This document shows positions 12,689 to 48,314 of a DNA stretch of 64,000 nucleotides, one piece after another. The notes under the pieces are model-generated. The model searched no databases, was not told the origin of the DNA, and worked only from the letters and a program-made list of their open reading frames with translations. Origin of the DNA: an uncultured archaeon (GTDB lineage: Archaea > Iainarchaeota > Iainarchaeia > Iainarchaeales > 1-14-0-10-31-34); contig CAZSOZ010000003.1 of NCBI GenBank assembly GCA_964608675.1, positions 10,900 through 74,899 of the forward strand. The letters are read 5' to 3'. Numbering within the stretch: position 1 is the first letter of the stretch; each line of letters begins with the position of its first letter. The position numbers and the translations under genes were made by a program.

Positions 12689-13282
12689 TTATATTTTGTT
12701 TTTAATGCTTTCAGGAATTCCTTTGACTGACAAATAATACCATGCAAAATAGTATCCTGCAATCAACACAAACAATGAAATCCTGAACAATAAATCGTGT
12801 GCTAATTCAATTGTCTGCAAATCTGTTTTTTTAATCAAAAAAACAGTAATAATTATTCTTGCAGTATTAAACAAAAAGGTTGTAATGCCTGCTCCGATTA
12901 CCCCGATTGCTTTTTTTTCTTTTGTTATTTCTCCTGTTGCAATTACTGCTGAAGCCAGCACAATGAATTCCATTAATCCAGTGCATAAATAACTAATTTG
13001 AATTGAATAATTTTCAAACAAAATTAAAACAGGTTCCTGAAAAACAATTTTTCCTCCGGTAAAAACTGCAACTGCTTTTGCAGTAATTAATTCAATCCAT
13101 TCCAAAGGAATAAATGAAATCAAAAAAGAAAGAAAAACATAAAAGAAAACCAGAATTAAAACAAACTTTCCTACCTGAACTATTTTTTTGTCCATTAAAT
13201 TTAATTTAATCAGCAAAGTATTAAATATTCTTTTTTTTATAATTTTTTGCATGGCTGGAGTAATTGATTCATTTGCATTCAT
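12689..13282 (-). CDS. Putative exosortase/archaeosortase-family polytopic membrane protein (short form)
   Basis: 197 aa with multiple TM segments. It has a Cys inside a TM-flanked motif (ISYLCTGLMEF) and a downstream FNTARIIITVFL (Asn..Arg) motif. These resemble the conserved Cys/Arg/Asn core of the exosortase/archaeosortase family. This is a motif-level resemblance only. The true start may be an internal Met, because the ORF as listed overlaps the divergent gene by about 95 bp. Confidence 0.45.
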   Translation of the reverse strand: MNANESITPAMQKIIKKRIFNTLLIKLNLMDKKIVQVGKFVLILVFFYVFLSFLISFIPLEWIELITAKAVAVFTGGKIVFQEPVLILFENYSIQISYLCTGLMEFIVLASAVIATGEITKEKKAIGVIGAGITTFLFNTARIIITVFLIKKTDLQTIELAHDLLFRISLFVLIAGYYFAWYYLSVKGIPESIKNKI

Positions 13283-14246
13283 TCTAAAAAAAAGCTTTGA
13301 CTTAAAGTTATGGCTTTATTTTCTGCTTATTTTAATTATTGCAGTTGTTTCTTTTGGAATACTCTTTTTTGTTTTTCTTTTTATTGGATTTCTTTTATTT
13401 TTAATTCTGCAGTTTTCGCTTGCAGGATTTTTGTTTTATTTTATTTTTTTTATTTTGTTTTTGGTTTCAATGTTTGCTTTGGGTTCAGCGGTAAATGGAG
13501 TTTTATTGAATTTTGCAAGAGATTACATTCATTCAGGCAAAATCGATTTAGGGCTGGCTTTCAATAAAACTAAACCAAGAATTTTCACTGCAGTTAAAGT
13601 TGAGGTAATTGTCGGAATTTTCTTTTTTGCAGTTTTTTTATTATTTTTTCTTCCGTTTATTTTTTCTTTAATTGAATTAATTAATACTGCTTCTCTTAGA
13701 TTTCTGATTGCGCCTAATTCATCTCAAATGCTTTCCCTGTTTTTTTCTGTTTTAGGTTCTCTTTTGCTGGGTTTTCTTTTGTATGGAATTTTCAGCATTA
13801 TTGTTGCTCCGTTCAGCATTCTTTACAGGCAGATTCCTTTTTTTGAATCCCTTTCAGCGGTTGATTCAATTAAAAGAGCAGTTTTTCTTGCAAGAAAAAA
13901 TTATTTTTCTAATTTAGGTTTTGCGGTTCTGGCTTTCATTATTACAGGTGTTTTTACTTTTGTTTACATGATTTTTTCTTTTGTTTTAGCTTTAACTAAT
14001 GCAAGTCAGATTATATTTCTGATAATACTTGCAATTTTTTTAAGAATAATTTTAGAGTTTGCTTTTGTTTTGTGGACTACGGTTTTTAATTATCTGGTTT
14101 ATGTTAAAGTTTATGAATTCAATTCAACTGAACAAAAATTTTTTCAGCCGAAAACTTTTCTAAAAACAAAACCTAAAACAAAATCAAAATCATTAAAGCC
14201 AAAGCCTTCAACAAAAACCAGAGTCAAGCCCGGCACAAAAAAATAA
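13188..14246 (+). CDS. Polytopic membrane protein with a Lys/Pro-rich C-terminal tail, function unknown
   Basis: 352-aa ORF with about 8 hydrophobic segments and a tail KTKPKTKSKSLKPKPSTKTRVKPGTKK. It is the first gene of the plus-strand pilus operon. The start is uncertain (Met22 at 13251 is possible). Confidence 0.5.
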   Translation: MSIKFNLISKVLNILFFIIFCMAGVIDSFAFILKKSFDLKLWLYFLLILIIAVVSFGILFFVFLFIGFLLFLILQFSLAGFLFYFIFFILFLVSMFALGSAVNGVLLNFARDYIHSGKIDLGLAFNKTKPRIFTAVKVEVIVGIFFFAVFLLFFLPFIFSLIELINTASLRFLIAPNSSQMLSLFFSVLGSLLLGFLLYGIFSIIVAPFSILYRQIPFFESLSAVDSIKRAVFLARKNYFSNLGFAVLAFIITGVFTFVYMIFSFVLALTNASQIIFLIILAIFLRIILEFAFVLWTTVFNYLVYVKVYEFNSTEQKFFQPKTFLKTKPKTKSKSLKPKPSTKTRVKPGTKK

Positions 14247-14305
14247 ATCCTTTTTTTTTAAAGAAAAGACTTTAATATAACTTTCACCTATTTTTTTAGG
14301 TTTAA

Positions 14306-16585
14306 ATGAAGATTGGAAACTTTGAAGTAGGAGATTATGCTGTTAAGGAATCAGGCGGAAAACGTCATTTAATTTTTGACTGCAGAAACTGCGTTTATTC
14401 TTCTTCTTTGACTGATGATAAAGCATGCCGTTATCATGTTATTTCTATTTTATCTCAGATTGAAGCAGACTTAATTGTTTTGGCTGAAGTTTATGAAAGA
14501 GTTTATAACCAGCATCAAACTAAATTGCTTAAAGAGATTGCAGAACTTATCCCGCGATTTGAATTAGAAAACTTGTGGGGTGTTGAAAATTTAGGTGAAT
14601 CCGGAACCGAATGCGAAAAATTGTTTGGATTAAGGCATGATCTTTTAGTAAAAATTTCGCATGACTTAATTGCATTTGATCCAATACTTTCTTACATTAC
14701 TTTGCTTTCCGAAATACAAAAAGAAAAACAAAAAATGAAAAACGAGAATTATGCTTCCTGTTCCAAACCATTCATTCAAACTTTATTGTATTTAAAACAG
14801 GAATTCGAAAAAACTGAATTGATTTCAAAAGCAAAACAAATTATTGCAAAATTAGAGGAAATGCCTGACACAAAACAATTATATTACTCTTTTTTTGAAG
14901 CTCAAGTCAAGCCTTCTTTTATTGGTTCAAGATTAATGTTTGAAAAAGCAGAAACACTTGAATTATTGGATGAATATTCTGTTAAAAAATCCAACGTGCA
15001 AATTTTTAAGCATCCGAACAAAGTTGAAAAACTTTATTTTTTGAATCCGCCTGAATATACTTTGCCTCCGGAAAAATATTTTGTGTTAAGCAAAACAAAA
15101 GAAATTGTTGCCACTTATCAGCCCGGCAAAACTTCTTTGTCAACTATTGCCAAAAGCAGAAAATATTTTGAAAGAGTTTATGAATCAACTATTTTTGATA
15201 TTGCAAAACAAAACAATATTTCTTTGTCTAAAGAAGAAGTAAAAGAATTAAGTGAAATTGTTGCAAGATATACTGTTGGTTACGGAATCCTTGAAATTTT
15301 GTTGAGCGACAGAAATCTTACAGATATTTATTTGGATTCTCCGATAGGACAAAAACCTTTGTATGTTGTTCACTCTGAATACGGCCAATGCCAAACCAAC
15401 ATTTTGTATACAGAAGATGAAGCTGAATCAATGGTTTCAAAATTAAGGGCTATGTCAGGCAGACCGTTTGATGAAGCGCATCCTGTTTTGGATTACGATT
15501 TGCAGGAACTGGAAACAAGAACTGCTGTAATTGGAAAACCTTTGGCTCCTGATGGAATTGCTTTTGCTTTTCGTTTGCATAAAATGACCCCATGGACTCT
15601 TCCTCAGTTTATTGACAAAAAATTTATTTCTCCTTTGGGAGCAGGCCTTTTGTCTTTTTTTATTGACACTCAGTCAACTATGCTTGTAACTGGTTCTCGT
15701 GGTTCTGGAAAAACTTCTTTGCTTGGAGCATTAATTCTTGAAATTTTGCAGAATGCAAGAATTATTGTTCAGGAAGACACTTTGGAAATTCCTGTTTCTT
15801 ACATGAAGGAAATAGGCTTTAATATTCAGAGAATGAAAACAAGGGCTCCAATTGGTACAGCTAAAAGCGAAACAGAAGTTTCTCCTGAAGATGCTTTAAG
15901 AACTGCGTTAAGGCTTGGTGATTCTGCTTTGGTTTTAGGTGAAGTTCGTTCAACTGAAGCAAGAGTTTTGTATGAAGCAATGCGTGTTGGTGCAGCAGGA
16001 AACATTGTTTTGGGAACAATTCATGGTGATTCAGCTTACAGTGTATGGGACAGAGTTGTAAATGACTTGAATGTTCCAAGCACTTCTTTTAAGGCAACTG
16101 ATATAGTTGTTGTTGCCCGTCCAATTCGTTTTGGGGGCTCTCTGGAAAGGCAGAGAAGAGTAGTTCAATTAACTGAAATAAAAAAGGAATGGATTGAAGA
16201 CCCTTTGCATGAAGGAGGCCTGCTTGATTTAATGCTTTTTGATGCATCAAAAAACAAGCTTGAATTACAGGAAGACAATTTAAAGGAATCAACTTTGTTT
16301 GATAGAATCCATAAAACTTATGGTTTGAGTATGACTGAAATGTGGGATTCAATTAAAATGAATTCAAATTCCAAGGCTTTTATGGTTGAATTAAAAAACA
16401 AACTGGGTTTCCCTGAATTGCTTGAAGCAGAAAACACTGTTCCTGCAGTCAACAAATTAATGTTAATGAAACAAAACCAGCTTGAAGAAAACGGTTCAGT
16501 TGACTTTGAAGAAGTTTTAGGCAAATGGAAATTCTGGTATAAAAATGATTTCGTTAAAAGACTGCATTCAAGAAGGAAAAAATAA
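14306..16585 (+). CDS. FlaI/GspE/VirB11-family secretion ATPase (type IV filament assembly ATPase) with a roughly 350-aa N-terminal extension
   Basis: Walker A is LVTGSRGSGKTSLLGALI, the Asp box/Walker B is IIVQED and GEVRSTEA matches the GEIRG-like motif. The N-terminal extension carries a Cys cluster, CRNCVYSS..DKACRYH. An ATG start follows an AGG Shine-Dalgarno. Confidence 0.85.
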   Translation: MKIGNFEVGDYAVKESGGKRHLIFDCRNCVYSSSLTDDKACRYHVISILSQIEADLIVLAEVYERVYNQHQTKLLKEIAELIPRFELENLWGVENLGESGTECEKLFGLRHDLLVKISHDLIAFDPILSYITLLSEIQKEKQKMKNENYASCSKPFIQTLLYLKQEFEKTELISKAKQIIAKLEEMPDTKQLYYSFFEAQVKPSFIGSRLMFEKAETLELLDEYSVKKSNVQIFKHPNKVEKLYFLNPPEYTLPPEKYFVLSKTKEIVATYQPGKTSLSTIAKSRKYFERVYESTIFDIAKQNNISLSKEEVKELSEIVARYTVGYGILEILLSDRNLTDIYLDSPIGQKPLYVVHSEYGQCQTNILYTEDEAESMVSKLRAMSGRPFDEAHPVLDYDLQELETRTAVIGKPLAPDGIAFAFRLHKMTPWTLPQFIDKKFISPLGAGLLSFFIDTQSTMLVTGSRGSGKTSLLGALILEILQNARIIVQEDTLEIPVSYMKEIGFNIQRMKTRAPIGTAKSETEVSPEDALRTALRLGDSALVLGEVRSTEARVLYEAMRVGAAGNIVLGTIHGDSAYSVWDRVVNDLNVPSTSFKATDIVVVARPIRFGGSLERQRRVVQLTEIKKEWIEDPLHEGGLLDLMLFDASKNKLELQEDNLKESTLFDRIHKTYGLSMTEMWDSIKMNSNSKAFMVELKNKLGFPELLEAENTVPAVNKLMLMKQNQLEENGSVDFEEVLGKWKFWYKNDFVKRLHSRRKK

Positions 16586-18918
16586 TGAGAAGAACCCAGA
16601 AAAAAGAAAAAGAAGTTTATGAAACCAGAAAAGTTTCTCCTGGAGAATTATATAAGGGAATTTCTTATTCAGGAACAAAATTTGGTGAAGAAACAAAATT
16701 ATTAAAAAAAAAAGAGCATTGGTTTGTTGTTTTCTGCAAAAAATTTTTTAGTTCATTTCCTTCTCTTGGAAAAGGAGCAAAATATTCAAAAAAATACAGG
16801 GAAGCCATTGATTTCCTTGGATGGAATCTTTCTCCTGAAGAATTTTCTGCTTCAATTAAACTGACAATGATTGCTTCAATTATTTTTGCTTTTATTTTGT
16901 TTGTTTTAGCAATTTCTTTTGGGGCAGTTGAAGCAATAACAGAGTTTACCGGAAGCTCTTTGCTTGCTTATTTTTATCTTTTTGTTCCTTTAATTTTGAT
17001 TGTTTATTTTGCAGTAAATTTTGTTCAAAAGTTTCCGTTGAATGAAGCAAAAGTTGAACAAGTTCGTGCATTAACTTTTGTTCCTGAAATCATGGGGTAC
17101 ATGATTATGTCCATGAAGCTTGTTCCTAATTTAGAGAAAGCAGTTGAGTTTGCTGCAACACACGGAAGAGGAAAAATTGCAGAAGACCTTAAAAAAGTTA
17201 TTTGGAATGTTGAACTTGGCATTCATAAATCTTTAAGCGAAGGCTTGGATGAAATGGCTTACAATTGGGGAAAATTTTCTGATGAATTTAAGTCTTCTTT
17301 GATGATGATTCGTGCTTCGGTTTTGGAAACCAGTGAAGCAAAACGCTATCAGATTCTTGACAAAACAATGGAGCAAACCCTTGAAAGCATTAAAACCAAA
17401 ATGGAGCAGTATGCAAGAGAATTATCTCAGCCTACAGTTGTATTGTTTTATTTAGGTGTTTTACTGCCTTTAATTTTAATTATTGTTTTGCCTGTTGGCT
17501 CTGCTTTTTCCGGACAAGGTTTAGCGAGGCCGGAAATCCTTGTTTTAATTTATAATATTTTAATTCCTGGCGCAACATTTGTTTTTGCTTTGAATGTTTT
17601 AAGAAACAGGCCTCCAACTTATGAGCCTCCGAAAATTCCTGATGGCCATCCTTCTCTTCCAAAAAAATATCAAATGAAATTAGGAAAAAATTTTGTTGAT
17701 TTAAGGTTTGTAATGCTTGCAGTTTTAATTGCTGGAGCAGGCTTGACTTGGTTTTTTCATTCCAACGGAATAGTGTTTGAATTTGATCAAGAAAAGCTTA
17801 CTATTATTCCTCCTGACAGAACAAAAGAATTTGTTTTGGAAAGAGTTAACCGGCCTGAAAACTGGTATAACGAAGATGGTCCTTTTGTCCAGCAGTTGAT
17901 TTCAAGAGGAGTTGAACTTCAAGCCGCACAAAAAACTGTTGCTGCAGAAAAAGCAATGTTTTTTATGAAACCTGAAAATGATATTACTCCATACAATTTA
18001 ATTTTTGGTTCGCTTTTAACTTTTGCTTTAATGTTTTTCATTTATTTTAATTTCACTTCAATTTACAAAAGAAAAGTTCAGGAAGAAACAATGGAAATGG
18101 AATCAGAATTTAAAGACTCCCTTTATGTTATTGCTTCCCGAATGGGAGAAAATAAGCCGGTTGAAGAATCTTTAAGGCATGCACAAAATTTTCTGCCTGA
18201 TTATGTTATTTCCCAAAAGCTTTTCGGTAAAACCGTTGACAACATTAATTTATTAGGCATGCCTTTGGAGAACGCTGTTTTTGACCCGAATTATGGTGCA
18301 TTAAAACATAATCCTTCTAATATAATCCGCAGTTCAATGAAATTGCTGGTTGATTCAGTTAAAATGGGAGTTGAAGTTTCTGCCAGAACTTTAATGTCTC
18401 TTTCACTTCAGCTTAAAAACTCTGAAAAAGTAAACAAAACTCTTTCAATTTTAGTTAAAGAAATTACGTCCACTATGAAAACAATGGCAGTGTTTATTGC
18501 ACCGGTTGTTTTGGGTATCACGACTGCTTTGCAGAAAGTTGTAATGATTTCTATGGGTTCAATTATTTCTGAAGGATCCCTTGATTCTGTTTCAGGAAAC
18601 ATAAGCAACGTGGATTTAGCCGGAGCAAATTTGGGTTCAGGGTTATCCAGCCAGCTGAGTGCTTTTTCTTCTTCTATTTCAAGTTTTAAAATGGATCCCG
18701 AAGTTTTTGCTTCGCTTGTTTCTCCTGCTCAATTCACTTTTATTATTGCTTTGTATGTAATTGAAATAGTAATTATTTTAACTTACTTTACTTCCAAACT
18801 GGAAGAAGATAATAATGTTCTGGCTACTTTGAGGATTGCAAAAGCTTTGCCGGTTGCTTTGACTGTTTTTGTTCTGGCAATCATTGTTTCAAATTCAGTT
18901 GTTGGAGGCTTCATGTAA
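16585..18918 (+). CDS. FlaJ/TadC-like polytopic platform protein (two T2SSF domains fused, plus a C-terminal extension)
   Basis: 777 aa. Two T2SSF-like soluble domains (VPEIMGYMIMSMKLVPNLEKAVEFAA..., YVIASRMGENKPVEESLRHAQNFLP...) are each flanked by TM helices. The ATG overlaps the ATPase stop (TAATG), which is translational coupling. The C-terminal third has extra TM segments and Ser/Gly-rich stretches. Confidence 0.8.
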   Translation: MRRTQKKEKEVYETRKVSPGELYKGISYSGTKFGEETKLLKKKEHWFVVFCKKFFSSFPSLGKGAKYSKKYREAIDFLGWNLSPEEFSASIKLTMIASIIFAFILFVLAISFGAVEAITEFTGSSLLAYFYLFVPLILIVYFAVNFVQKFPLNEAKVEQVRALTFVPEIMGYMIMSMKLVPNLEKAVEFAATHGRGKIAEDLKKVIWNVELGIHKSLSEGLDEMAYNWGKFSDEFKSSLMMIRASVLETSEAKRYQILDKTMEQTLESIKTKMEQYARELSQPTVVLFYLGVLLPLILIIVLPVGSAFSGQGLARPEILVLIYNILIPGATFVFALNVLRNRPPTYEPPKIPDGHPSLPKKYQMKLGKNFVDLRFVMLAVLIAGAGLTWFFHSNGIVFEFDQEKLTIIPPDRTKEFVLERVNRPENWYNEDGPFVQQLISRGVELQAAQKTVAAEKAMFFMKPENDITPYNLIFGSLLTFALMFFIYFNFTSIYKRKVQEETMEMESEFKDSLYVIASRMGENKPVEESLRHAQNFLPDYVISQKLFGKTVDNINLLGMPLENAVFDPNYGALKHNPSNIIRSSMKLLVDSVKMGVEVSARTLMSLSLQLKNSEKVNKTLSILVKEITSTMKTMAVFIAPVVLGITTALQKVVMISMGSIISEGSLDSVSGNISNVDLAGANLGSGLSSQLSAFSSSISSFKMDPEVFASLVSPAQFTFIIALYVIEIVIILTYFTSKLEEDNNVLATLRIAKALPVALTVFVLAIIVSNSVVGGFM

Positions 18919-18993
18919 ACCGTCACGCTCGTTTTATATGCGTGCACTGTCTTTGCTGTGCTAGACAGGGCTTAATAATTTTAAGGTGGTAAA

Positions 18994-19500
18994 ATGGTTA
19001 ATCAAAAAGGACAGTCTTTTGAAGTATTTAATTTGTTGATTGGAGCAATTCTTGCTTTGGCTATTCTTGTAATTATTATTTCTATTATTAATTATCTTGA
19101 AGAAATCAAAGTTGATTCAAGCCTTGAAGCAATTGAACAAAAATTAAAGAATGCTTCTCAGTCTCCTGATGGACGTATTTTTGTTTCAAATGAAGTTGTT
19201 ATTCCAAAAGATTACAGTTTTAATTCAAAGCAGGTTTCAAAGATTTTGAATATTTCAGAGGAATGCGTTGAATTTGATTTTCCTCAGAACGCGAAATGGG
19301 CTGTTTATCCAAACAGTCCTGAACGAAACCTTGTTTTTTTTCCTAAGCGAATTGAAACAAATTTTTATGTTGTCTGCCAGTCTTCTGATGAAAGACTTTA
19401 CCATAGTGATTTTTCTTTAATGCAGTGCCCTGCAGATTCGTGTGTTGAATTCTGCTGTCTGCTTTCTTTTGGAGTGAATCCTAAAACAGCTAATGAATGA
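18994..19500 (+). CDS. Class-III signal peptide (type IV) pilin-like protein, Cys-rich
   Basis: The N-terminus MVNQKG|QSFEVFNLLIGAILALAILVIII is the archaeal prepilin motif (KG|Q plus hydrophobic helix). GGTGG Shine-Dalgarno lies 5 nt upstream. There are 7 Cys in the globular part. Confidence 0.75.
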   Translation: MVNQKGQSFEVFNLLIGAILALAILVIIISIINYLEEIKVDSSLEAIEQKLKNASQSPDGRIFVSNEVVIPKDYSFNSKQVSKILNISEECVEFDFPQNAKWAVYPNSPERNLVFFPKRIETNFYVVCQSSDERLYHSDFSLMQCPADSCVEFCCLLSFGVNPKTANE

Positions 19501-19559
19501 TTTCTTAAAACTAAAGCTTTAAATATTTCTTTGGTTTTCTTTTTAGTGGTGATGTTTTT

Positions 19560-20099
19560 ATGTTAAACCAAAAGGGACAGGAGTTCAGTGTATTCAAATT
19601 ATTAATTTCTGCTATTGTTGCAATAGTTGTTTTGACTTTGCTTTTGAATATTCTTGGAATAGTTGATTTTAATCCAAACACTGATCCGGCAGAAGCAGCA
19701 AAGAATCTTTTGACAAGCGTGGATAACTCTAATTTTCAGGAAAAGATAAGCGACAGAATTGATTTTACTTCTGAGAACAGCATTAATTCAAAAGCTTTAT
19801 CTGATGCTACGGGTTTATCTGAAAACCAAATTTGTTTGCTTGTATCAGAAGAACTTACTGACAGAGGTTTTACTTCAAACGGAAAACTTATAACTTATGC
19901 CAACAATAGTTCTATTAGAGTTAAATTAGCAGGCATTTGTGCTGAAGCATCTGATTTCAGGGAAAACGATTTTTTATCATCATATACTAAAACCATGGCT
20001 GAAGAAGTTCCTGCAGATCTTGGGGATTGTAGTTTTGTTTCAGAATCAGATTCCACTGGAAGAGCATGTTTGATGGTTTTAATTCGTTCAAATGAATAA
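19560..20099 (+). CDS. Class-III signal peptide pilin-like protein
   Basis: The N-terminus MLNQKG|QEFSVFKLLISAIVAIVVLTLLL is paralogous to the preceding pilin. GGTGA Shine-Dalgarno lies upstream. Confidence 0.75.
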   Translation: MLNQKGQEFSVFKLLISAIVAIVVLTLLLNILGIVDFNPNTDPAEAAKNLLTSVDNSNFQEKISDRIDFTSENSINSKALSDATGLSENQICLLVSEELTDRGFTSNGKLITYANNSSIRVKLAGICAEASDFRENDFLSSYTKTMAEEVPADLGDCSFVSESDSTGRACLMVLIRSNE

Positions 20100-20204
20100 A
20101 TTTTTAAGAAAAGTTTTAGCAAAATGTACAGCGTAAAAAACCGTACTCTCAAACTTATTTTTTTTTAATTAACTTTAAATACCAGTTTAGCCTTATTTTT
20201 TGTT

Positions 20205-20354
20205 ATGGAATTATTAAAGGAAAATAAAGCGCAAAGCGAATGGAATTCTGTTTACATGCTGATAGTTTTGATTATTGCTGTACTGTTGTTGATTACTGTT
20301 ATTAAGCCGATGTTTGAAAAAAGCCAGCAGATAAACAAGCCGATAGGAGGCTGA
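20205..20354 (+). CDS. Small (49 aa) single-TM ORF inside the pilin operon
   Basis: Hand-found ORF below the 60-aa track cutoff: MELLKENKAQSEWNSVYMLIVLIIAVLLLITVIKPMFEKSQQINKPIGG, ending in TGA. Its end overlaps the AGGAGG Shine-Dalgarno of the next pilin gene. Confidence 0.25.
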   Translation: MELLKENKAQSEWNSVYMLIVLIIAVLLLITVIKPMFEKSQQINKPIGG

Positions 20355-20358
20355 TTTT

Positions 20359-20907
20359 TTGTTTTGCAGAGGACAAGAGGAAGCGCCTTTTCAGTTGCTA
20401 GTTGCAGTTATTTTAATGACTTTTGTTATTATTGTGGGCTTGAATGCAATGAATGAAGCTTCAAGAGAAAAATGTTTTAATAATACAGAAAAATTATTGA
20501 ATGACTTAAAGCAGTCAATTGAAAAAACTGCTATTTATAAACAGCCGTCTTCTATTAATTTTAATCCTCCTGGATGCACTAAAAATGAATCTTTTGTTTT
20601 AATTAAATCAGATGAATCAAGAATTTGCAGTGAACTTTGCATGAATTCATCAAGCAGTTGTATTTTGTTAAGATACAAAACTGTTGAAATAACTGAAATT
20701 CAGGATAAATGCATTAACATTTCTTATGACACTCAATTCAGACATTATGCTGATGACTGGGATTCCGGATGCATGCATCTTGAAGGATACACTGGAATTT
20801 CAATTGATTCACAGGGTTTTATTCCGGGAGTTTATCAGTTTTTGTATTCTGAAACTTCAGGAACAACAAGCCCTGTTGTGTGTGTTTATATTAAAGAAAA
20901 AAATTGA
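20359..20907 (+). CDS. Class-III signal peptide pilin-like protein, Cys-rich
   Basis: The N-terminus MFCRG|QEEAPFQLLVAVILMTFVIIVGL, with 10 Cys in the globular domain. AGGAGG Shine-Dalgarno lies upstream. Confidence 0.7.
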   Translation: MFCRGQEEAPFQLLVAVILMTFVIIVGLNAMNEASREKCFNNTEKLLNDLKQSIEKTAIYKQPSSINFNPPGCTKNESFVLIKSDESRICSELCMNSSSSCILLRYKTVEITEIQDKCINISYDTQFRHYADDWDSGCMHLEGYTGISIDSQGFIPGVYQFLYSETSGTTSPVVCVYIKEKN

Positions 20908-20917
20908 GGTAATTTGA

Positions 20918-21565
20918 ATGCTGGGTTTTACTTTAAGCAAAATAAATTTGTTGATTTTTGTAGTTTCAGTTTTTTCAATTATTTTGTTTTTTATTTTTAG
21001 TTTTTCAACTATTTTAATTGAAAACATTGCAAATGATTATGTAAGAATTCATGCACAGGATGCTTTTACTTTGGTTGGCTCGCCTTCTTTGTGTGCCTCA
21101 CAAATTCATTATTTAAAAGATTCACTTGAATCTAATTCAGGGAATTCAGGAAGAGGATTATATTATATTATGGACATAAAGAAAGCTGAAGGAAATGAAA
21201 TGAATAAAATGATTTTTGCTTTGGCTCCAAGGAAAACTCCTGAACAGTTTATGGCTGCTGCTTCTTTTGACACTGAAGCAGACATAAAATTTTTTGATTT
21301 TCAAGAATTAACCAGCAATAACTGTGATGAATTTAATGCTCCTGCTTGTTCTTCAATTAATCTTTATGATTCAAATATTTTGCTTGACCCTCAGGCTTTG
21401 CTTCCATCTAATGCATACGTTCTATTAAAAGAAGTTGTGTCAGGAGAAACAACTGTTTATGTTATTCCCTGCAGTAACAGGCAGGGTTCTGATTGCAGGG
21501 TGCTGTTTGAAAGAGCAGGCAATAAAATTCGTGAAGAGGGATTTAATTGTTCTTATGCAGATTGA
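20918..21565 (+). CDS. Pilin-like protein with a short G|FTL-type leader
   Basis: MLG|FTLSKINLLIFVVSVFSIILFFIF is a hydrophobic N-terminal helix after a Gly. This is the same G|FTL leader type as the 597-aa protein. It lies in the same tightly packed operon. Confidence 0.55.
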   Translation: MLGFTLSKINLLIFVVSVFSIILFFIFSFSTILIENIANDYVRIHAQDAFTLVGSPSLCASQIHYLKDSLESNSGNSGRGLYYIMDIKKAEGNEMNKMIFALAPRKTPEQFMAAASFDTEADIKFFDFQELTSNNCDEFNAPACSSINLYDSNILLDPQALLPSNAYVLLKEVVSGETTVYVIPCSNRQGSDCRVLFERAGNKIREEGFNCSYAD

Positions 21566-22047
21566 ACCAGAAAGCATATCTTGGCCCGATTGGAGATGAC
21601 CTTCCTTCTTTGATTCCTTTAATGTTTGCTTTGGTGATTTTCTTTTCTTCTTTTTATTCTGCAGTAAATGTTTATAATGACAGGACAGTTGATTTTGAAA
21701 ACGATATCGCGGTCGTGCAAATTTCTGCTTCTTTAAGGGGAACAGGATTAGTTTCTTCTTTGGAGCAGTTTCATAATTCCTGCAATGCATTAAATGTCAG
21801 ACAGCCTTATTTTTCTGCGGGCTTAATTGACTTAAACAAAGATGTTAATATATTTGATTTAAGGGAAAATTATTTGTTTGAAGGCAGTGAATTATATGAA
21901 TGTTCTAATGTTGTTCCTGAAAAAATTTTAACCAAAGAAAAAGTCCTTCAGCCTAATTCAAAGGTTGTTGTAAGAACTTATCCGTTAATTCTTCAAAGAA
22001 ACGAAGTTTCTTTGCCTGTAAAGCTGGTGGTTGTTGCATGGGAATAA
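21562..22047 (+). CDS. Pilin-like protein (start ambiguous)
   Basis: The track ORF starts at TTG 21547. A second in-frame TTG at 21562 overlaps the upstream stop (TTGA) and gives (M)NQKAY|LGPIGDDLPSLIPLMFALVIFF, echoing the MxNQKG leaders of pilins 1 and 2. A hydrophobic helix follows. Confidence 0.5.
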   Translation: MNQKAYLGPIGDDLPSLIPLMFALVIFFSSFYSAVNVYNDRTVDFENDIAVVQISASLRGTGLVSSLEQFHNSCNALNVRQPYFSAGLIDLNKDVNIFDLRENYLFEGSELYECSNVVPEKILTKEKVLQPNSKVVVRTYPLILQRNEVSLPVKLVVVAWE

Positions 22048-22757
22048 TGAATTCAAGAGGACAGGCTGCAATAACTGATGCATTGTTTTTTTTGGTTATT
22101 GTAATGTCTTTGGTTGTATTTCTTTTCTTTTTTACTTCTCAGTACGGCAGAAGTGTAGGGGAATATTCTGATTCAAAGTATAGCTCTGATTATGCTTCCA
22201 GTGCACTGAAAACTGTTTTATATTCTTCTTTTGCAAGAGACGGTCTTCCTTTGTGTATTGAAGAAAGCTGTTCAAAGGAAGTCGATTTTTTGATTGCTGC
22301 AATTAAAGAAGATTATGCTGACGACAAAAACATTAATTATTTTAAGGATGAATTAACTGAATCAATTAAATTGGTTATGAAGCCTGTAAGAAATTCTTTT
22401 GATTTCATGCTGTTCATTAAAATTTCTTCTGATTCTGTTCCTAAATACCCTTATTTTTTTATTTCAAGAAAAGAGTTTTCTTATCAGGATCAAGGGCCTT
22501 TTGTTTCTGATGTTCAGTCTGAAGAAAAAAATTATTACTGTAATGTTTCTCAGAGTTCTTCTTTTAATCAAAATAAAATAGATGAATTTATTGTTTTTAC
22601 CGGAGTAAAAGGACTGGCTGTTTCTTCTTTGTGGTTTCCTTTGGTTAATACAATCGAATACGATAAAGGAGAAATTGATTTGATTTTATGGAATCCCAAA
22701 GATTTTAATGAAAGCCAAAAAGTGTTTAAAGAATTGGACTGCCAGCTGATTGAATAA
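22038..22757 (+). CDS. Class-III signal peptide pilin-like protein
   Basis: MGIMNSRG|QAAITDALFFLVIVMSLVVFLFFF. An alternative ATG at 22047 overlaps the upstream stop (TAATG). The body is Cys-containing. Confidence 0.65.
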   Translation: MGIMNSRGQAAITDALFFLVIVMSLVVFLFFFTSQYGRSVGEYSDSKYSSDYASSALKTVLYSSFARDGLPLCIEESCSKEVDFLIAAIKEDYADDKNINYFKDELTESIKLVMKPVRNSFDFMLFIKISSDSVPKYPYFFISRKEFSYQDQGPFVSDVQSEEKNYYCNVSQSSSFNQNKIDEFIVFTGVKGLAVSSLWFPLVNTIEYDKGEIDLILWNPKDFNESQKVFKELDCQLIE

Positions 22758-23558
22758 TTATTTTTTGGTTACGTGTCCGCAGTGAGGACACAAATATTTT
22801 GTTTTGTTTCCTTCTTTGTGTTTTATTTTTGTGCATTTGTCGCAGTAAGCGTTTCCGCATTTGGAGCAAAAAATCAGTTCATTAAATTGCTGTCCGCAGT
22901 TAATGCATTTTCCTTTTTCTTTTTTTTCTGTTTCTTTTTGTGATTCAATGGTTTTTTTTTGAATTCCTTTTTTTTCTTCACTTAAATCCAAATCTAATTT
23001 AAATCCTTCAATTTCTTTTTTTTTCAGTTTCCCTGTTTTTGCTGGTTTTGTTTCTCCAAGCAAATCTTTGATGTTTGTTCCTTTCATTTCCGGAAACTCA
23101 ATTTCATTTTTTTCTTCTGTTTTTTCTTTTCTTTTTCTTTCTGTTTCTTTTTTTGTTTCTTCTTTTTTGTTTTCTTTTTTTTCTGTTTCTGTTTTTTTAG
23201 GTTCTTCTTTGATTTCTTTTCTTTCTTTTAGTCTTTCCATTCTTCTTTTTTTCCATAAAGGAATTTCTTCTTTTCCTTCTTTTTTTCCTGCAATTTTTTT
23301 TGATATTTCTTCTGCTTTCTTTTTTTTCTTGTTCTTTTTTTCCTGTTTTTTTTGTTTTTTTTCTTGTTCTTTTCTTTTCATTTGTTCAAATATTGTTTCA
23401 GCTATTTTTTCCGGTTTCTCTTTTTGTATTTTAAGTTTTTCATTAAAATCTTTTTGTTTTTTTTTGGAAAGACTTTTAAGATTTTCAGATAACTTTTTTT
23501 CTTTTATATTTTTTTTCCTGTGAAATCTTTTAAGCCTTCGGGGTATTTTTTCTGCCAT
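22758..23558 (-). CDS. Lys/Glu-rich (KEKE-type) low-complexity protein with a C-terminal double CxxC zinc ribbon
   Basis: The 266-aa ORF is dominated by K/E repeats. The C-terminus is CINCGQQFNELIFCSKCGNAYCDKCTKIKHKEGNKTKYLCPHCGH, with four CxxC pairs. It is preferred over the antisense F/S-rich ORF at 23068..23523. Confidence 0.55.
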   Translation of the reverse strand: MAEKIPRRLKRFHRKKNIKEKKLSENLKSLSKKKQKDFNEKLKIQKEKPEKIAETIFEQMKRKEQEKKQKKQEKKNKKKKKAEEISKKIAGKKEGKEEIPLWKKRRMERLKERKEIKEEPKKTETEKKENKKEETKKETERKRKEKTEEKNEIEFPEMKGTNIKDLLGETKPAKTGKLKKKEIEGFKLDLDLSEEKKGIQKKTIESQKETEKKEKGKCINCGQQFNELIFCSKCGNAYCDKCTKIKHKEGNKTKYLCPHCGHVTKK

Positions 23559-24153: not shown

Positions 24154-27100
24154 ATGAATAAAGTAAACGTTTTTTGGTCGGCATTTATTATTTCTTTGCT
24201 GTTGAATGTTCCGTTGTTTTATGCTGTAAGTTCAAATGAATTTTATTTTCAGGATGAATCTGAATTAATTGAAGAACCAGTTAACACTTTTTCTTGTTCT
24301 CAGAGTTCTCTTTCTCCTGAAGAAATTCAGGCTTTTCAGGAAAACATTCTTGAAACAGGTTTTTCGGGAGAAAATCTTTCTGCAGGCTCACAGCCTTTAA
24401 AGGATCGTGAAACACTTGAAAATAATACTGCTTTGCTTGTTTCTCCTGATTCAAATATTGCACAAAAAGTTGAGCTTCCTAATCAGGAGATTTCAGCTGA
24501 AGAAGTTTCTTATCTTTTAAATAATCGTTATGATGGAGCTTATTCTTTTGGTTTGCTTTTGAATGATTCTCTTAGATTAGGCCAGTGCAGGGATAATTCA
24601 GCTGACTGTCCTTTAATGGGAAACAATTTAACTTATAGAACTGATGGAGAGGGATTTAAAGAAGATTTTGTTTCTGTTTGGGGGGATTTAAAGGGAGTGG
24701 TTAATGACTGGTTTGGAAGCAAAAAAGATGTTCCTGGCGAACAGCTTCCTGAAGAAACAAAACAAAGGATTAAGGATTATTTTGAAGCTGGAGCTGAAGA
24801 AGATGTTGAAGGAACAATTGTTAAAAAAGTTCCCGGCGAATACATGTCTAACAGTGTTTTAACTGATGAATTCACTGCTTCTATGGGAACAACATGCAGG
24901 GATTCTTCTTGTACTATTTCTTTGTATTCTTTTTTTGATAAGCATTTCAATCAATGGTTTTCTTCTAATATGGTGGTTCAGACTGCAGGTCCTACTTTGT
25001 TGTTTGGAGCAAAAAAATTGTTTGGCTTGAGTGCAAGAAGAGGTTTGTTTGGAGCCCAGTTTATTGATGTTGAAAACACTAATTTAGTTAAGAATATGAG
25101 AATGAAAATTTGGGGTCCTGATTCTTTTTTTTCAGAAAAACTTGGTTCAAGGATTATTCAGCAAAAAAACAAGTATGATGGTTTTCCAGAGTTCTATAAA
25201 GAGTTTGTTCAGAATTCTCTTTATGAAAAAGGAATGGCTGACAGCGACGACACTTCAAGGATTCTTGCTAAATTTCTTGACCCTAAAACTTCTCCTTTGT
25301 ATACTAATGGAACGATTTCAATTGAAAAAAAGAAGGCTTTTGTGCAGTTAGCAAAAGACCTTAAAAGATATACTACTACTGCGGATTGGTATGGTCAGGC
25401 AGCAAAAAGGGAAATGGATGACATAATTGAAGTTTTTGGAAGAGAGTCTCCTCAGGGAATTGAAGCAAGAAGATTATATGGAGCAAAAATGTCCAGATTG
25501 TATGGAAAGTTTGATGATGATTTGGATGCAGATTTCCCTAATATGATTGCAATGCAGGAAAGGCTTGGATTATGGAATAAAGGATTAAAGAATGCCAGAA
25601 CAGGAAACGTTCAAACTATTGCTGCTGACAGCGATGTATGGAACAACATAATGAAATGGTTTGGTGGACACGGAAAATATGATTTTTCTTTAAGGGATGT
25701 AACTGATTTTGAGCCCGGAACTTTTGCTAATGCTGCAAGGCACTGGCATGTAAGAGGAGATGATTTAGTTTATTATAAACTTAAACCTACTTTGACTTCT
25801 GATGTTATTCCAAGAGGAGACTTAAAGGCATGGGTTGCAAAATCAAAGACTGATGATCTTTATGCTAATATTCCTGGTCATGGATTTATTGAAATAAGGG
25901 ATAATACAAAAGATTTTATTTTAGAGCAGGTTCCCGGGGACGTAAGAATTTATAAAGGTTCTTGGTCTGAAGCTGGAGCTCTTAAACCTGAACAAATGGG
26001 TGACCTTCTTGCAGATAAACCGACTAAAAGGCTTCAGAAGGCTTCTGCTATGAATGAACAGTTATGGGGGGCTTTAAGAGAAAAAAATTGGGCTGAAAGA
26101 AAATACTTTAATGCTATGGATAAAATTTTTGCTAATGAAGAAAGGCTGGCTAATGCTTATTTTAGGAGTGTTGGAGGAGCAGCAAAATATACTGTGGTTC
26201 CTTATATTTACTGGCAGGCAAAAAGAGGTTTTGGTGTTGATGAATTAAGTGCTTATATGCTTCCTGAAACATGGAGGACAGTGCATTATTCTTCTGGAGA
26301 AGACAAATTGTATGACGATGCTTTTATTGATTTTTTTGCTAATTCAGGTTCTGATGACGGAGACCTGTTTATTAGGGTAATTGACAATCTTCCATGGAAA
26401 TATGTTTTGAATACTTTGTCTGAAAAATTTAATCTTGTTAAACAACAGTATGACCGTTATACTAAACCTAATGGAGGGCTTAGAACTGAAGTGGGAAACA
26501 TTGCAGTTTATTCTAATACTTCTGAGAACTGTATTGGATGTGGCATTACTTTGAATTCTTCTTCTGCAAATGATTTTCTTGCTTTATTTAAGTCTGGAAG
26601 CAGGACTTCTTCTATTGTTTTAGAGGATACTCCGAAAGACGAGCAAAAGAATGGTGCAGTATTAATTAATTATGCTCATCATCTTGATTTGCAGGGAAAA
26701 ACTCCTGAAGGAGTCCCTGAAAAAATTAATTTAAGTGAATCAGTTTCTGAAAATAATACTTGTCAGGATGCAATAGAGGAAGCAGGTTATGGAGTTGGAT
26801 TTGCAAACAAACATGGAATTAATCCTGGTTTTTATTTGGCTTCAGCTGAAGCTGCTTCTTATCTTATTTTTGGAATGGGAGGAGCAATTGTTACTGCTGT
26901 CCAGCAGTTTGTTGTTGCATCAAAATTGCAGGGTTGTGTTGATTCAAGTGAAGGTTATTATACTCATTTTTTTGTTCCTGCTTTTGAAGAAGAAGAACCT
27001 CCTAAAGAAAACACTGTTGAGTATTCAACTCAAAAGGTTTCTAATTTAATTGATGATGCTTCTTCTCAATTAGAATCTTTTTTTACTGGAACAGGAACTT

Positions 27101-32388: not shown

Positions 32389-32393
32389 TTTTT

Positions 32394-33179: not shown

Positions 33180-33181
33180 TT

Positions 33182-48307: not shown

Positions 48308-48314
48308 TTTTTTT

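What the first reader, a model, noticed from the sequence alone, without database searches (positions are those of the whole stretch)
14306..22757. Compact type-IV-filament operon with an N-terminally extended ATPase, a fused double-T2SSF platform and a run of 6-7 Cys-rich pilins
The gene order is membrane protein, FlaI-like ATPase (759 aa), FlaJ/TadC-like platform (777 aa), then pilin-like genes at 18994, 19560, 20359, 20918, about 21562 and 22038, plus a 49-aa TM ORF. The junctions are translationally coupled (TAATG at 16583-16587, TTGA at 21562-21565, TAATG at 22045-22049). There is no FlaH, FlaF, FlaG or FlaCDE, so this is not an archaellum. The pilins have unusually Cys-rich globular heads (7-10 Cys each), suggesting disulfide-stabilised extracellular domains. 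Together with the adjacent giant adhesins this looks like a bespoke adhesion or contact filament.
Basis: partly seen in the sequence, partly recalled or inferred. Interest (0 to 1): 0.7.

Follow-up and report, generated by a model that had tools for sequence, protein, structure and literature searches.

The report
DPANN archaeal type IV pilus locus
This is a real, strongly conserved gene cluster for a type IV pilus-like surface filament in a tiny DPANN archaeon (Iainarchaeota, formerly 'Diapherotrites'), with an unusually long assembly ATPase and neighbouring giant surface proteins. The kind of machine is well known, but this version has not been described.

Summary
The locus exists as described. 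It holds a 759-aa GspE/FlaI-family ATPase, a 777-aa platform protein whose start overlaps the ATPase stop, then seven small proteins with N-terminal hydrophobic helices.

- **Pilins.** Five carry a canonical archaeal class III signal ([KR][GA]|Q), one a variant (KA|Y), and one (20918-21565) lacks the motif.
- **Pilin 1 model.** It folds confidently (pLDDT 93.7) as a 52-residue helix plus a beta head, with no solved structural relative.
- **ATPase extension.** The extra ~215 N-terminal residues are a conserved Cys/His-containing module absent from Pfam and PDB, found in only 153 of 1.84 billion cluster representatives.

Corrections:
- Cysteine counts are 2-8 per mature protein, not 7-10.
- Conserved promoter-like elements suggest three transcription units, not one.
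- A two-domain platform is normal.

The system is much larger than flagged. The same gene order recurs in about ten Iainarchaeota genomes and includes four giant proteins, a 597-aa pilin-like protein and an exosortase-family gene. The pilins most resemble Methanococcus Epd pilins. An adhesion or contact role is inferred, not shown.

The parts
1..3216 (-). Third giant surface protein. It is 2501 aa in the full contig and runs off the left end of the window. A fourth giant of 2194 aa follows it outside the window.
   Evidence: An open frame of at least 1070 aa has the same N-terminal anchor as the 2481-aa giant. Its full length and the following 2194-aa gene come from contig SRR7048224_146291.
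3323..5116 (-). 597-aa pilin-like protein with a class III-type N-terminus (MNKKG|FTLFTALVSFVLILL), 16 Cys and 12 N-glycosylation sequons. It is a candidate large minor pilin or tip adhesin.
   Evidence: The N-terminus is conserved in L012 and L014. It scored in the class III scan. There is a weak ComGF minor-pilin hit at residues 3-54, E 0.0011, far below cut-off.
5151..12596 (-). 2481-aa giant surface protein with an N-terminal membrane anchor and Ig-like / CarboxypepD_reg repeats.
   Evidence: Pfam gives CarboxypepD_reg at E 2.6e-21, plus weaker DUF4198 and Big_1 hits. It is syntenic at 38-60% identity in L002, L006 and L008, with 2500-3400-aa counterparts in L011-L016.
12689..13282 (-). 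Exosortase/archaeosortase-family membrane protein (197 aa).
   Evidence: Pfam Exosortase_EpsH scores 27.4 bits against a cut-off of 25.7. NCBIfam TIGR04178 scores 32.9 against 23. It sits next to the giant gene, or within a few genes of it, in nine of the ten orthologous loci that reach it; in L012 the gene at that position has no exosortase Pfam hit on record.
13251..14246 (+). Polytopic membrane protein (331-352 aa) with no family match. Association with the system is uncertain.
   Evidence: No Pfam or NCBIfam hit. It is present in most orthologous loci, but on the opposite strand in L013 and L014.
14270..14279 (+). TATA-box-like element (CTTTAATATA) 27-36 nt upstream of the ATPase start.
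   Evidence: The motif and spacing are conserved in the close orthologues L002 and L006, with a looser version in L008. Promoter activity is inferred.
14306..16585 (+). Assembly ATPase of 759 aa. Residues 1-~215 are a family-specific N-module (C26xxC29...C41xxH44). Residues ~220-690 are a FlaI/afGspE-like N-domain plus the P-loop domain. About 70 further residues form a C-terminal tail.
   Evidence: T2SSE at E 5.5e-17. NCBIfam FlaI scores 132 bits and TadA 124 bits, both below cut-off. PDB hits are afGspE 2OAP at E 9e-32 over residues 295-682, then CpaF and FlaI. Conservation is shown and the distribution of the N-module. The module has no Pfam or PDB match.
16585..18918 (+). Platform protein of 777 aa with two GspF-like helical domains (about residues 125-309 and 470-669). 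Between them lies an extra TM pair with a small beta-containing outer domain (about 341-470). There is also a disordered Ser/Gly loop at 670-684.
18994..19500 (+). Pilin 1 (168 aa; MVNQKG|QSFEVF...). It has 6 Cys, 4 of them invariant.
19517..19526 (+). TATA-box-like element (CTTTAAATAT) upstream of pilin 2, followed by a GGTGAT Shine-Dalgarno sequence.
   Evidence: It is conserved at the same spacing in 7 of 8 loci aligned. CTTTAAATA occurs only 5 times on this strand of the window.
19560..20099 (+). Pilin 2 (179 aa; MLNQKG|QEFSVFKLLISAIVA...) with 4 Cys. It has its own promoter-like element, is followed by a T-run, and is duplicated in some genomes. It is a candidate major pilin.
   Evidence: Alignment. 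Extra copies in L006 and L013.
20173..20182 (+). TATA-box-like element (CTTTAAATAC) 23-32 nt upstream of the 49-aa gene, implying a leaderless transcript for the mini-pilin-to-pilin-6 unit.
   Evidence: A TATA-like motif lies at a similar distance in 8 of 9 orthologous loci and farther upstream in L015.
20205..20354 (+). Mini-pilin (49 aa; ...ENKA|QSEWNSVYMLIVLIIAVLLLITVIKPMF...). The mature protein would be about 40 aa, essentially the N-terminal helix alone. It is a second candidate major subunit.
   Evidence: It is the best conserved of the pilin set: 80-82% identity where the others are 52-71%. Alignment. Differences are mostly at third codon positions. A weak ComGC hit has E 0.0064.
20359..20907 (+). 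Pilin 3 (182 aa; TTG start; FCRG|QEEAPFQLLVAVILM...). It has 8 Cys in the mature part, 6 of them invariant, and 4 sequons.
20918..21565 (+). Pilin-like protein 4 (215 aa; MLG|FTLSKINLLI...). It has an N-terminal hydrophobic helix but no basic residue before the Gly. It may be left uncleaved or be an atypical minor pilin. 6 Cys.
   Evidence: The conserved N-terminus is M-x-[GD]-F-x-LSK-x-N-[LM]-LI. It was not found by the class III scan.
21562..22047 (+). Pilin-like protein 5 (161 aa from the TTG at 21562; NQKA|YLGPIGDDLPSLIPL...). It has 2 Cys and carries the most invariant motif of the set.
   Evidence: K[GA][FY][LIV]G-x-IGDDLPSLIPL is conserved in all 11 orthologues. The start overlaps the pilin 4 stop.
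22047..22757 (+). Pilin 6 (236 aa from the ATG at 22047; MNSRG|QAAITDALFFLVIV...) with 4 Cys.
22758..23558 (-). Lys/Glu-rich cytoplasmic protein with a C-terminal 8-Cys double zinc ribbon. It is syntenic with the locus.
   Evidence: Sequence. Synteny. Makarova et al. 2016 list Zn-ribbon proteins among the partners of archaeal T4P loci (PMC4858521).
23613..24149 (+). Conserved 178-aa polytopic membrane protein with no family match.
24154..28626 (+). 1490-aa secreted protein with an N-terminal signal peptide and a C-terminal NLPSLPES-TM-KKKK tail. It is a possible exosortase-type substrate.
   Evidence: Sequence. No Pfam or NCBIfam hit. Syntenic counterparts of 1490-1690 aa occur in all loci.

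Best explanation
The locus encodes a non-archaellar type IV filament (pilus) machinery of an Iainarchaeota ('Diapherotrites', DPANN) archaeon. It forms the core of a surface-apparatus block of about 45 kb that is conserved across the lineage.

Shown:
- A hexameric-type secretion ATPase (14306-16585) and a polytopic GspF-fold platform (16585-18918) are encoded back to back.
- Seven downstream proteins, plus a 597-aa protein upstream, carry N-terminal hydrophobic helices. Five are preceded by a short [KR][GA]|Q leader of the Methanococcus Epd type.
- Pilin 1 models as a long helix plus a beta head.

Inferred mechanism:
- A prepilin peptidase encoded elsewhere removes the leaders.
- The ATPase, docked on the cytoplasmic domains of the platform, uses ATP to lift mature subunits out of the membrane into a helical filament held together by the N-terminal helices.
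- Pilin 2 is one candidate for the bulk subunit. It has its own promoter-like element and a T-run, and is duplicated in some genomes. The 40-residue mini-pilin is the other candidate, being Flp/MMP1685-like and the best conserved.
- The tightly packed genes 20205-22757 supply minor pilins that prime or cap the fibre.
- The 597-aa pilin-like protein and the giant Ig-repeat proteins provide adhesive surfaces. At least the 1490-aa protein may be anchored by the exosortase-family enzyme.
- Even numbers of conserved cysteines suggest disulfide-stabilised heads.
- The function is most likely attachment or contact with surfaces or partner cells.
- The ATPase-specific N-module with conserved Cys/His is probably a metal-binding regulatory or docking domain.
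For: - **ATPase identity.** T2SSE hit and best PDB matches to afGspE, CpaF and FlaI, with intact catalytic boxes.
- **Pilins.** Leader motifs are conserved across about ten loci. The class III scan concentrates in this locus. The pilin 1 model has pLDDT 93.7 with a helix at 5-56 plus a beta head.
- **Cysteines.** Mature counts are all even and enriched four-fold.
- **Transcription.** TATA-like elements are conserved before the ATPase, pilin 2 and the mini-pilin.
- **Synteny.** Gene order runs giant, exosortase, ATPase, platform, seven pilins, Zn-ribbon, membrane protein, 1500-aa protein in L002, L004, L006, L008 and L011-L016. Two further giants lie upstream.
- **Conservation gradient.** ATPase 69-92% identity, platform 51-83%, pilins 28-71%.
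- **Not an archaellum.** No archaellum-specific genes were found.
- **Precedent.** The Epd system has a +1 Gln, a 74-aa major pilin and minor pilins of 130-300 aa (PMC3875500).
Against: - No prepilin peptidase (Peptidase_A24) was found among the listed window ORFs of at least 120 aa, all scanned with Pfam. The rest of the genome could not be searched.
- No pilin Pfam family (DUF361/Class_IIIsignal, Flp_Fap, archaellin) matches any of the small proteins.
- The pilin 1 head has no solved structural relative, so 'pilin fold' rests on architecture alone.
- Protein 4 lacks the cleavage motif, and protein 5 has Pro/Gly/Asp-rich residues just after the predicted cut, which is unusual for a filament core helix.
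- The second T2SSF domain is not detectable by sequence.
- No filament, expression or adhesion data exist for any Iainarchaeota.
- A second ATPase with a split platform in the same window (31393-34597) could be the true partner of some of these pilins.
Confidence: 0.7

Rival explanations
1. The system is a pseudopilus-type export or display machine, like a type II secretion system. A short, non-protruding fibre of major plus minor pseudopilins would push or present the neighbouring giant proteins through the cell envelope, instead of forming a long adhesive pilus.
For: - The composition of one or two abundant subunits plus four or five tightly packed minor subunits resembles GspG plus GspH-K.
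- The giant secreted proteins are invariably syntenic with the machinery.
- The platform fold matches EpsF as well as it matches PilC.
Against: - Archaea of this kind have no outer membrane or secretin, and none is encoded here.
- The giants have their own N-terminal anchors or signal peptides, which suggests Sec-dependent export.
- The GspE equivalog scores only 28-32 bits.
- The distant relative L017 has the ATPase, platform and small proteins without any giant protein.
Confidence: 0.13
2. The system is a bindosome-like assembly, like the Sulfolobus Bas system. The class III signal proteins would be individually anchored functional surface proteins that the ATPase and platform organise at the membrane, not filament subunits.
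For: - The NCBIfam BasE model matches at E 1.8e-20 over residues 216-608.
- The class III proteins here are heterogeneous, from 49 to 597 aa.
- A 2026 preprint argues that class III signals often functionalise TFF machineries with binding proteins (10.64898/2026.04.22.720090).
Against: - The BasE score is 73 bits against a cut-off of 1000, lower than the scores for FlaI and TadA.
- None of the small proteins has a substrate-binding or enzymatic domain.
- Their heads are small (about 100-190 aa), as in pilins.
- No ABC transporter is linked to the locus.
Confidence: 0.06
3. The system is a DNA- or nutrient-uptake pilus, like the Com pilus of monoderm bacteria. It would be a short retractile fibre that captures DNA for a nucleotide-dependent, reduced-genome archaeon.
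For: - A set of one major plus several minor pilins, and weak N-terminal hits of the mini-pilin to ComGC (E 0.0064) and of the 597-aa protein to ComGF (E 0.0011).
- The ComGA model matches the ATPase at E 1.8e-11.
- DPANN archaea depend on external nucleotides (general knowledge).
Against: - All Com hits are far below cut-off and limited to the generic hydrophobic helix.
- No ComEC/ComEA-like channel, DNA-binding domain or retraction ATPase is present in the locus.
- The conserved linkage is to giant Ig-repeat proteins, which points to adhesion.
Confidence: 0.06
4. The system is an archaellum, a rotary motility filament.
For: The best NCBIfam model for the ATPase is FlaI (E 3.2e-38).
Against: - The FlaI score is 132 bits against a cut-off of 550.
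- No FlaH, FlaF, FlaG, FlaX or FlaCDE and no archaellin domain is found in the listed window ORFs of at least 120 aa, all scanned with Pfam.
Confidence: 0.01

Closest known systems
Epd pili of Methanococcus maripaludis (archaeal TFF 'clade/system 1')
   Same: - Short leaders end in Gly (or Ala) with Gln at +1.
- Both have a very small Flp-sized pilin (MMP1685 is 74 aa; here 49-62 aa), mid-sized pilins of 130-215 aa and larger ones of 220-270 aa, so many pilin genes serve one system (PMC3875500).
- The window also holds an Epd-style core, an ATPase with two half-platform genes, at 31393-34597.
   Different: - The ATPase next to the pilins is about 760 aa with a unique N-module, and its platform is a single 777-aa chain.
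- There is no +5 Glu. Acidic residues sit at +2 to +4 or +6.
- There is no DUF361 Pfam hit.
- No EppA is present in the window.
- Giant proteins and an exosortase-family gene are linked to the locus.
- The pilin genes are clustered with the ATPase, whereas in Methanococcus they are dispersed.
Bacterial Tad/Flp pili (CpaF/TadA, TadB, TadC, Flp, TadE/F)
   Same: - CpaF is the second-best solved relative of the ATPase (E 4.5e-25), and the TadA model scores 124 bits.
- A mature helix-only subunit of about 40 residues sits alongside larger pseudopilins.
   Different: - The TadA cut-off of 373 bits is not reached.
- There is no Flp motif (G|xxxxEY) and no Flp_Fap hit.
- The platform is a single chain, not split.
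- There is no TadZ, RcpA secretin or TadV.
Sulfolobales Aap and Ups adhesive pili (clade 4)
   Same: The ATPase, platform and pilins are encoded together. The systems are non-motile adhesive filaments without FlaH, FlaF or FlaG.
   Different: - Aap and Ups have only two pilins of 138-168 aa and no +1 Gln rule.
- Their ATPases are about 480-520 aa without the N-module.
- No giant-protein neighbourhood is known from those systems; this comparison rests on general knowledge and was not tested here.
Archaellum (FlaB/FlaI/FlaJ/FlaH/FlaF/FlaG/FlaX or FlaCDE)
   Same: Homologous ATPase and platform core, with class III signal subunits.
   Different: All archaellum-specific components and the archaellin domain are absent, and the FlaI and FlaJ equivalog cut-offs are missed by a wide margin.
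Minor-pilin tip complexes with large adhesins in bacterial T4aP and T2SS (FimU-PilVWX-PilY1; GspHIJK)
   Same: A block of four or five co-transcribed minor pilins, one lacking the usual conserved residue, together with a large pilin-like or adhesin protein.
   Different: There is no sequence or fold similarity to these proteins. The analogy is organisational only.

Membership tests
Type IV filament (TFF) superfamily machinery | GspE/FlaI/TadA-family secretion ATPase with Walker A, Asp box, Walker B and His box | tested here: met
   PF00437 scores E 5.5e-17, 61.9 bits against a cut-off of 24.9. The alignment to afGspE shows GSRGSGKTS, QEDTLEI, LGEVRSTEA and GTIHGD.
Type IV filament (TFF) superfamily machinery | Polytopic platform protein of the GspF/PilC/FlaJ (T2SSF) fold | tested here: met
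Type IV filament (TFF) superfamily machinery | Two T2SSF domains in the platform | tested here: inconclusive
Type IV filament (TFF) superfamily machinery | Subunits with a class III signal peptide: a short basic leader, Gly/Ala at -1, then about 20 hydrophobic residues | tested here: met
   Five genes have [KR][GA]|Q. One has KA|Y (KG|F in orthologues). The 597-aa gene has KKG|F. All are conserved in orthologues. The protein at 20918-21565 does not meet it.
Type IV filament (TFF) superfamily machinery | Pilin architecture of a long N-terminal helix carrying a globular head | tested here: met
   Pilin 1 AF2 model: pLDDT 93.7, helix at 5-56 followed by a beta-rich head. The head has no solved homologue.
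Type IV filament (TFF) superfamily machinery | Prepilin peptidase (Peptidase_A24: PibD/FlaK/EppA) | tested here: inconclusive
   None was found among the listed window ORFs of at least 120 aa, all scanned with Pfam.
Archaellum | FlaH, FlaF, FlaG and FlaX/FlaCDE accessory genes, with archaellin (PF01917) subunits | tested here: not met
   No such family appears in any Pfam or NCBIfam scan of the window.
Archaellum | FlaI equivalog (NF058587) | tested here: not met
   131.8 bits against a cut-off of 550.
Epd pilus / archaeal TFF system 1 | Leader of 5-13 aa ending in Gly with Gln at +1 | tested here: met
   Pilins 1, 2, 3, 6 and the mini-pilin meet it. The definition is from PMC3875500.
Epd pilus / archaeal TFF system 1 | Conserved +5 Glu and a DUF361 (Class_IIIsignal) Pfam domain | tested here: not met
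   Acidic residues are at +2, +3, +4 or +6, not +5. There is no DUF361 hit at E <= 0.1.
Epd pilus / archaeal TFF system 1 | Two separate platform genes beside the ATPase | tested here: not met
   The platform in this locus is a single 777-aa chain. The feature is met only by the second locus at 31393-34597.
Tad/Flp pilus | TadA equivalog, Flp motif (G|xxxxEY) and split TadB/TadC | tested here: not met
   TIGR03819 scores 123.8 bits against 373. The mini-pilin begins QSEWNSVY after the cut and has no Flp_Fap hit. The platform is not split.
Bindosome (Bas) system | BasE ATPase and class III signal substrate-binding proteins | tested here: not met
   NF053672 scores 73 bits against 1000. None of the small proteins has a binding-protein domain.
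Exosortase/archaeosortase family (gene 12689-13282) | Signature domain TIGR04178 / PF09721 | tested here: met
   32.9 bits against 23, and 27.4 against 25.7. No named subfamily (XrtG, ArtD and others) reaches its cut-off.
Exosortase/archaeosortase family (gene 12689-13282) | Cognate substrates with a C-terminal motif-TM-basic sorting signal | tested here: inconclusive
   The 1490-aa protein ends in NLPSLPES-LLGLSLFFVSLIACMFLIQFSV-KKKK. Orthologue C-termini were not in the fetched loci, so conservation is untested.

The most novel reading that the evidence does not exclude
Iainarchaeota, and more distant DPANN relatives that share the long ATPase, possess a lineage-defining cell-contact organelle. 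It would be a type IV filament driven by an ATPase with a new Cys/His metal-binding N-terminal control module. The filament would be built from pilins with previously unseen head folds and deployed together with four or more giant Ig-repeat proteins. In some genomes these giants carry peptidoglycan-hydrolase domains, so the apparatus would serve to seize, and possibly breach, partner cells. This would be a genetic handle on how an uncultivated DPANN phylum interacts with hosts.
Probability: 0.25. Interest if true: 0.75.

Novelty: new variant of a known kind. Interest (0 to 1): 0.5.

Why it matters
No Iainarchaeota has been cultivated, and it is unresolved whether they are free-living or host-dependent. 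This block is a gene set conserved across the lineage that predicts a surface filament with giant adhesins. It offers concrete targets for cryo-ET, antibodies, metatranscriptomics and host-capture experiments.

It also defines an uncharacterised N-terminal module of archaeal secretion ATPases. The module is in 153 of 1.84 billion cluster representatives and is absent from Pfam and PDB. Several pilin families here have no annotated or solved relatives.

The locus also links Epd-type (+1 Gln) pilins to a single-chain platform. That is relevant to how archaeal type IV filament subsystems, and the bacterial Tad system thought to derive from archaeal type IV filaments, diversified.

Tried and rejected
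- **Platform internal duplication.** hhalign of platform half 1 against half 2 found nothing, with both 11 and 121 sequences.
- **Second platform domain by sequence.** A Pfam scan of nine domain-2 fragments gave no T2SSF hit. hhalign of domain 2 against the window's TadB/TadC-like proteins was in register but not significant, E 0.04-0.06.
- **Platform against PDB.** Sequence and profile searches found nothing relevant.
- **AlphaFold database.** The afdb50 library was not available.
- **ATPase N-module.** Profile searches against PDB and Pfam gave only coiled-coil-like noise.
- **Bacterial promoter scan.** The sigma-70 scan found fewer sites than in shuffles and does not apply to an archaeon. 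Terminator-like hairpins were about twice the shuffle mean, but none was used as evidence.
- **Organism names.** Cluster look-ups for distant ATPase relatives returned only 'archaeon' or 'bacterium'.
- **Right flank of the contig.** The look-up found no record.
- **Rejected readings.** Archaellum and bindosome are rejected, and Tad membership is not met (see the membership tests). A mobile element or virus is also rejected, because composition is uniform and synteny is chromosomal on contigs up to 850 kb.

Full report
**Observation.**
- TAATG at 16583-16587 joins the 759-aa and 777-aa genes.
- TTGA at 21562-21565 and TAATG at 22045-22049 join the last three pilin-like genes.
- Orthologues favour the short starts at 21562 and 22047.
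- The cysteine claim is overstated. Precursors have 6, 4, 9, 6, 3 and 4 Cys. Mature proteins have 6, 4, 8, 6, 2 and 4, and the 49-aa protein has none.
- Enrichment is real all the same, at 2.72% against 0.66% in 38 other genes of the window. Every mature count is even, which fits disulfide pairing.

**Organism and context.** The window is about 31% G+C and matches a Logan assembly contig of run SRR7048224. The same proteins are also on a 117-kb NCBI contig. It encodes archaeal markers such as PAC2. The closest genomic relatives are MAGs labelled Candidatus Iainarchaeum, Diapherotrites or Micrarchaeota, which places it in a DPANN archaeon.

**ATPase.**
- PF00437 matches residues 421-604 (E 5.5e-17).
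- The best solved relatives are afGspE 2OAP (E 9e-32, query 295-682), CpaF and FlaI. Walker A, Asp box, Walker B and His box are intact.
- NCBIfam's FlaI and TadA models score 132 and 124 bits, far below their cut-offs.
- The canonical FlaI-like N-domain starts near residue 220, so the first ~215 residues are additional.
- This module is conserved, with C26xxC29...C41xxH44 present in 84-94% of 107 homologues.
- More distant members carry two further CxxC pairs, near positions 103 and 152. That suggests one or two metal sites; this is an inference.
- A search with residues 1-290 against 1.84 billion cluster representatives found only 153 proteins. The module is nearly always at or near the N-terminus, and full-length members are mostly about 690-920 aa.
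- The module has no Pfam or PDB match.
- The full-length family is very conserved, 64-92% identity among the 120 best hits. It is often interrupted by inteins.

**Platform.**
- Pfam finds one T2SSF domain (181-303) at 23.8 bits, just under the gathering score.
- A profile of 11 orthologues aligns residues 169-327 to the window's own TadB-like protein (hhalign 63%).
- About a quarter of 120 homologues carry PF00482, and most are annotated 'hypothetical'.
- An AlphaFold2 model from 117 sequences is confident (pLDDT 86.1, pTM 0.83).
- The model shows the same pattern of a long helix, four short helices and a long helix at 125-309 and at 470-669. A two-domain platform is therefore likely, although no sequence method detects the second domain.
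- The extra length comes from three features: a disordered N-terminus, a TM pair with a small outer domain at about 341-470, and a Ser/Gly loop at 670-684.
- Two T2SSF domains in one chain are normal for FlaJ, PilC and GspF (general knowledge).

**Pilins.**
- Alignments across about ten orthologous loci show conserved N-termini:

| Protein | Conserved N-terminal motif |
|---|---|
| Pilin 1 | [KR]G\|Q-x-F |
| Pilin 2 | [KR]G\|Q..SVF.LLISAIVA |
| Mini-pilin | [KR][AC]\|QSEWNS.YMLIVLII |
| Pilin 3 | [KRS]G\|QE.APF |
| Pilin 6 | [KR][GA]\|QA..TD |
| Protein 5 | K[GA]\|[FY]LG.IGDDLPSLIPL |
| Protein 4 | M.GF.LSK.N.LI (no preceding basic residue) |

- A simple class III rule applied to all 226 ORFs gave 14 matches. 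The strongest were six of these genes plus the 597-aa gene at 3323-5116. Gln at +1 occurred nowhere else.
- Pilin 1, modelled with 40 sequences, has pLDDT 93.7 with a helix at 5-56 and a beta head.
- None of the pilin families has a Pfam or NCBIfam assignment.
- The 49-aa ORF is a real gene. It is the best conserved of the set, and its differences are mostly at third codon positions.

**Transcription.** TATA-like elements (CTTTAATATA and CTTTAAATA) lie at conserved distances before the ATPase, pilin 2 and the mini-pilin. A T-run follows pilin 2. I therefore infer three units:
1. ATPase, platform and possibly pilin 1.
2. Pilin 2 alone.
3. Mini-pilin through pilin 6.

**Extent.** The following order recurs in L002, L004, L006, L008 and L011-L016:
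- giant protein(s) and an exosortase-family gene on the minus strand;
- the ATPase, the platform and the seven pilin-like genes;
- a Lys-rich double Zn-ribbon gene;
- a 178-aa membrane protein;
- a secreted protein of about 1500 aa.

In this organism the minus-strand arm continues with the 597-aa pilin-like protein and two more giants of 2501 and 2194 aa. A distant relative (L017) keeps the ATPase, platform and five small genes without giants. The filament machinery is therefore the older module.

**Mechanism.**
- *Shown:* the components of a type IV filament are present and conserved.
- *Inferred:* leaders are removed by an unlinked A24 peptidase, and the ATPase powers extraction of subunits from the membrane through the platform.
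- *Inferred:* pilin 2 or the mini-pilin forms the shaft. The mini-pilin option is analogous to the 74-aa major pilin MMP1685 of Methanococcus (PMC3875500).
- *Inferred:* the co-transcribed block supplies minor or tip pilins, and the giant Ig-repeat proteins and the 597-aa protein mediate binding.

Rivals are given with lower weight: a pseudopilus export device, a bindosome-like assembly, a DNA-uptake pilus and an archaellum.

**Comparison and novelty.**
- The pilin leaders and size classes are closest to the Epd system. However, the +5 Glu, the DUF361 domain and the split platform are not met at this locus.
- An Epd-style ATPase with two half-platform genes lies separately at 31393-34597.
- Makarova et al. 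had noted that some DPANN genomes carry type IV pilus loci whose pilins are unrecognisable (PMC6393860).
- A 2026 preprint stresses variable N-domains in archaeal TFF ATPases (10.64898/2026.04.22.720090).
- In the four literature searches run, I found no description of this ATPase family, its N-module or the conserved giant-protein neighbourhood.
- I classify the locus as a new variant of a known kind.

**Limits.**
- No prepilin peptidase was found in the window.
- No expression or imaging data exist.
- The second platform domain and the metal binding are structural or sequence inferences.

Noticed in passing
window 31393-34597 (- strand): A second type IV filament core lies here. It has a 471-aa ATPase (T2SSE E 2.6e-36; FlaI model 221 bits, below cut-off) and two half-platform genes that match the N- and C-halves of FlaJ. 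No pilin genes sit beside it. This is the Epd / 'system 1' layout, and it might share the pilins of the main locus.
   Followed up: partly
window 3323-5116 (- strand): A 597-aa protein has a conserved class III-like N-terminus (MNKKG|FTLFTALVSFVLILL), 16 Cys and 12 glycosylation sequons. It lies between two giant genes and is probably a large pilin-like adhesin belonging to the same system.
   Followed up: partly
window 1-3216 (- strand) and beyond (L018:11901-21794): Two further giant proteins of 2501 and 2194 aa follow on the same strand. They share the N-terminal anchor motif (Y..ExKYY...TM) of the 2481-aa giant. Together with the 1490-aa protein, the block holds four very large surface proteins.
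   Followed up: partly
window 12689-13282 (-) and 28510-28626 (+): An exosortase/archaeosortase-family gene lies next to the giant gene, or within a few genes of it, in nearly all orthologous loci that reach it. The 1490-aa protein ends in NLPSLPES, a TM helix and KKKK, which looks like a C-terminal sorting signal. Conservation of that tail was not tested.
   Followed up: partly
L005:2905-4394, L007:2976-4492, L010:2323-3836; proteins P0004, P0006, P0007, P0010 and others: Many orthologues of the long ATPase are interrupted by an intein with a LAGLIDADG homing endonuclease (PF14528/PF14890) around residue 493-550. The window's copy has no intein.
   Followed up: no
L016:1-9788: In one Iainarchaeota genome the syntenic giant protein (3444 aa) carries Amidase_2 and cupredoxin domains. 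A neighbouring 803-aa protein has a faint Glucosaminidase hit. This hints at peptidoglycan degradation, and hence at bacterial partners.
   Followed up: no
window 22758-23558 (- strand): A Lys/Glu-rich 266-aa protein has a C-terminal eight-cysteine double zinc ribbon and is syntenic with the locus in all genomes examined. It may be a cytoplasmic regulator or partner of the machinery.
   Followed up: no
L017:10001-16373: A distant member of the long-ATPase family (29% identity in the N-module) is followed by a shorter platform of 630 aa and five small ORFs of 124-175 aa. No giant proteins are present. The contig carries archaeal markers (NAC, NFACT-R) although one source labels it 'bacterium'.
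   Followed up: partly
window 47531-63224: A large cluster of nucleotide-sugar and glycan biosynthesis genes lies here. It includes dTDP-rhamnose-type enzymes, UDP-glucose dehydrogenase, glycosyltransferases, methyltransferases and a flippase. It could supply glycans for the sequon-bearing pilins and giant proteins.
   Followed up: no
window 39541-42684 (- strand): Another surface protein of 1047 aa has fn3 and bacterial Ig-like domains, a signal peptide and a C-terminal TM anchor. It is not linked to the pilus block by synteny data.
   Followed up: no
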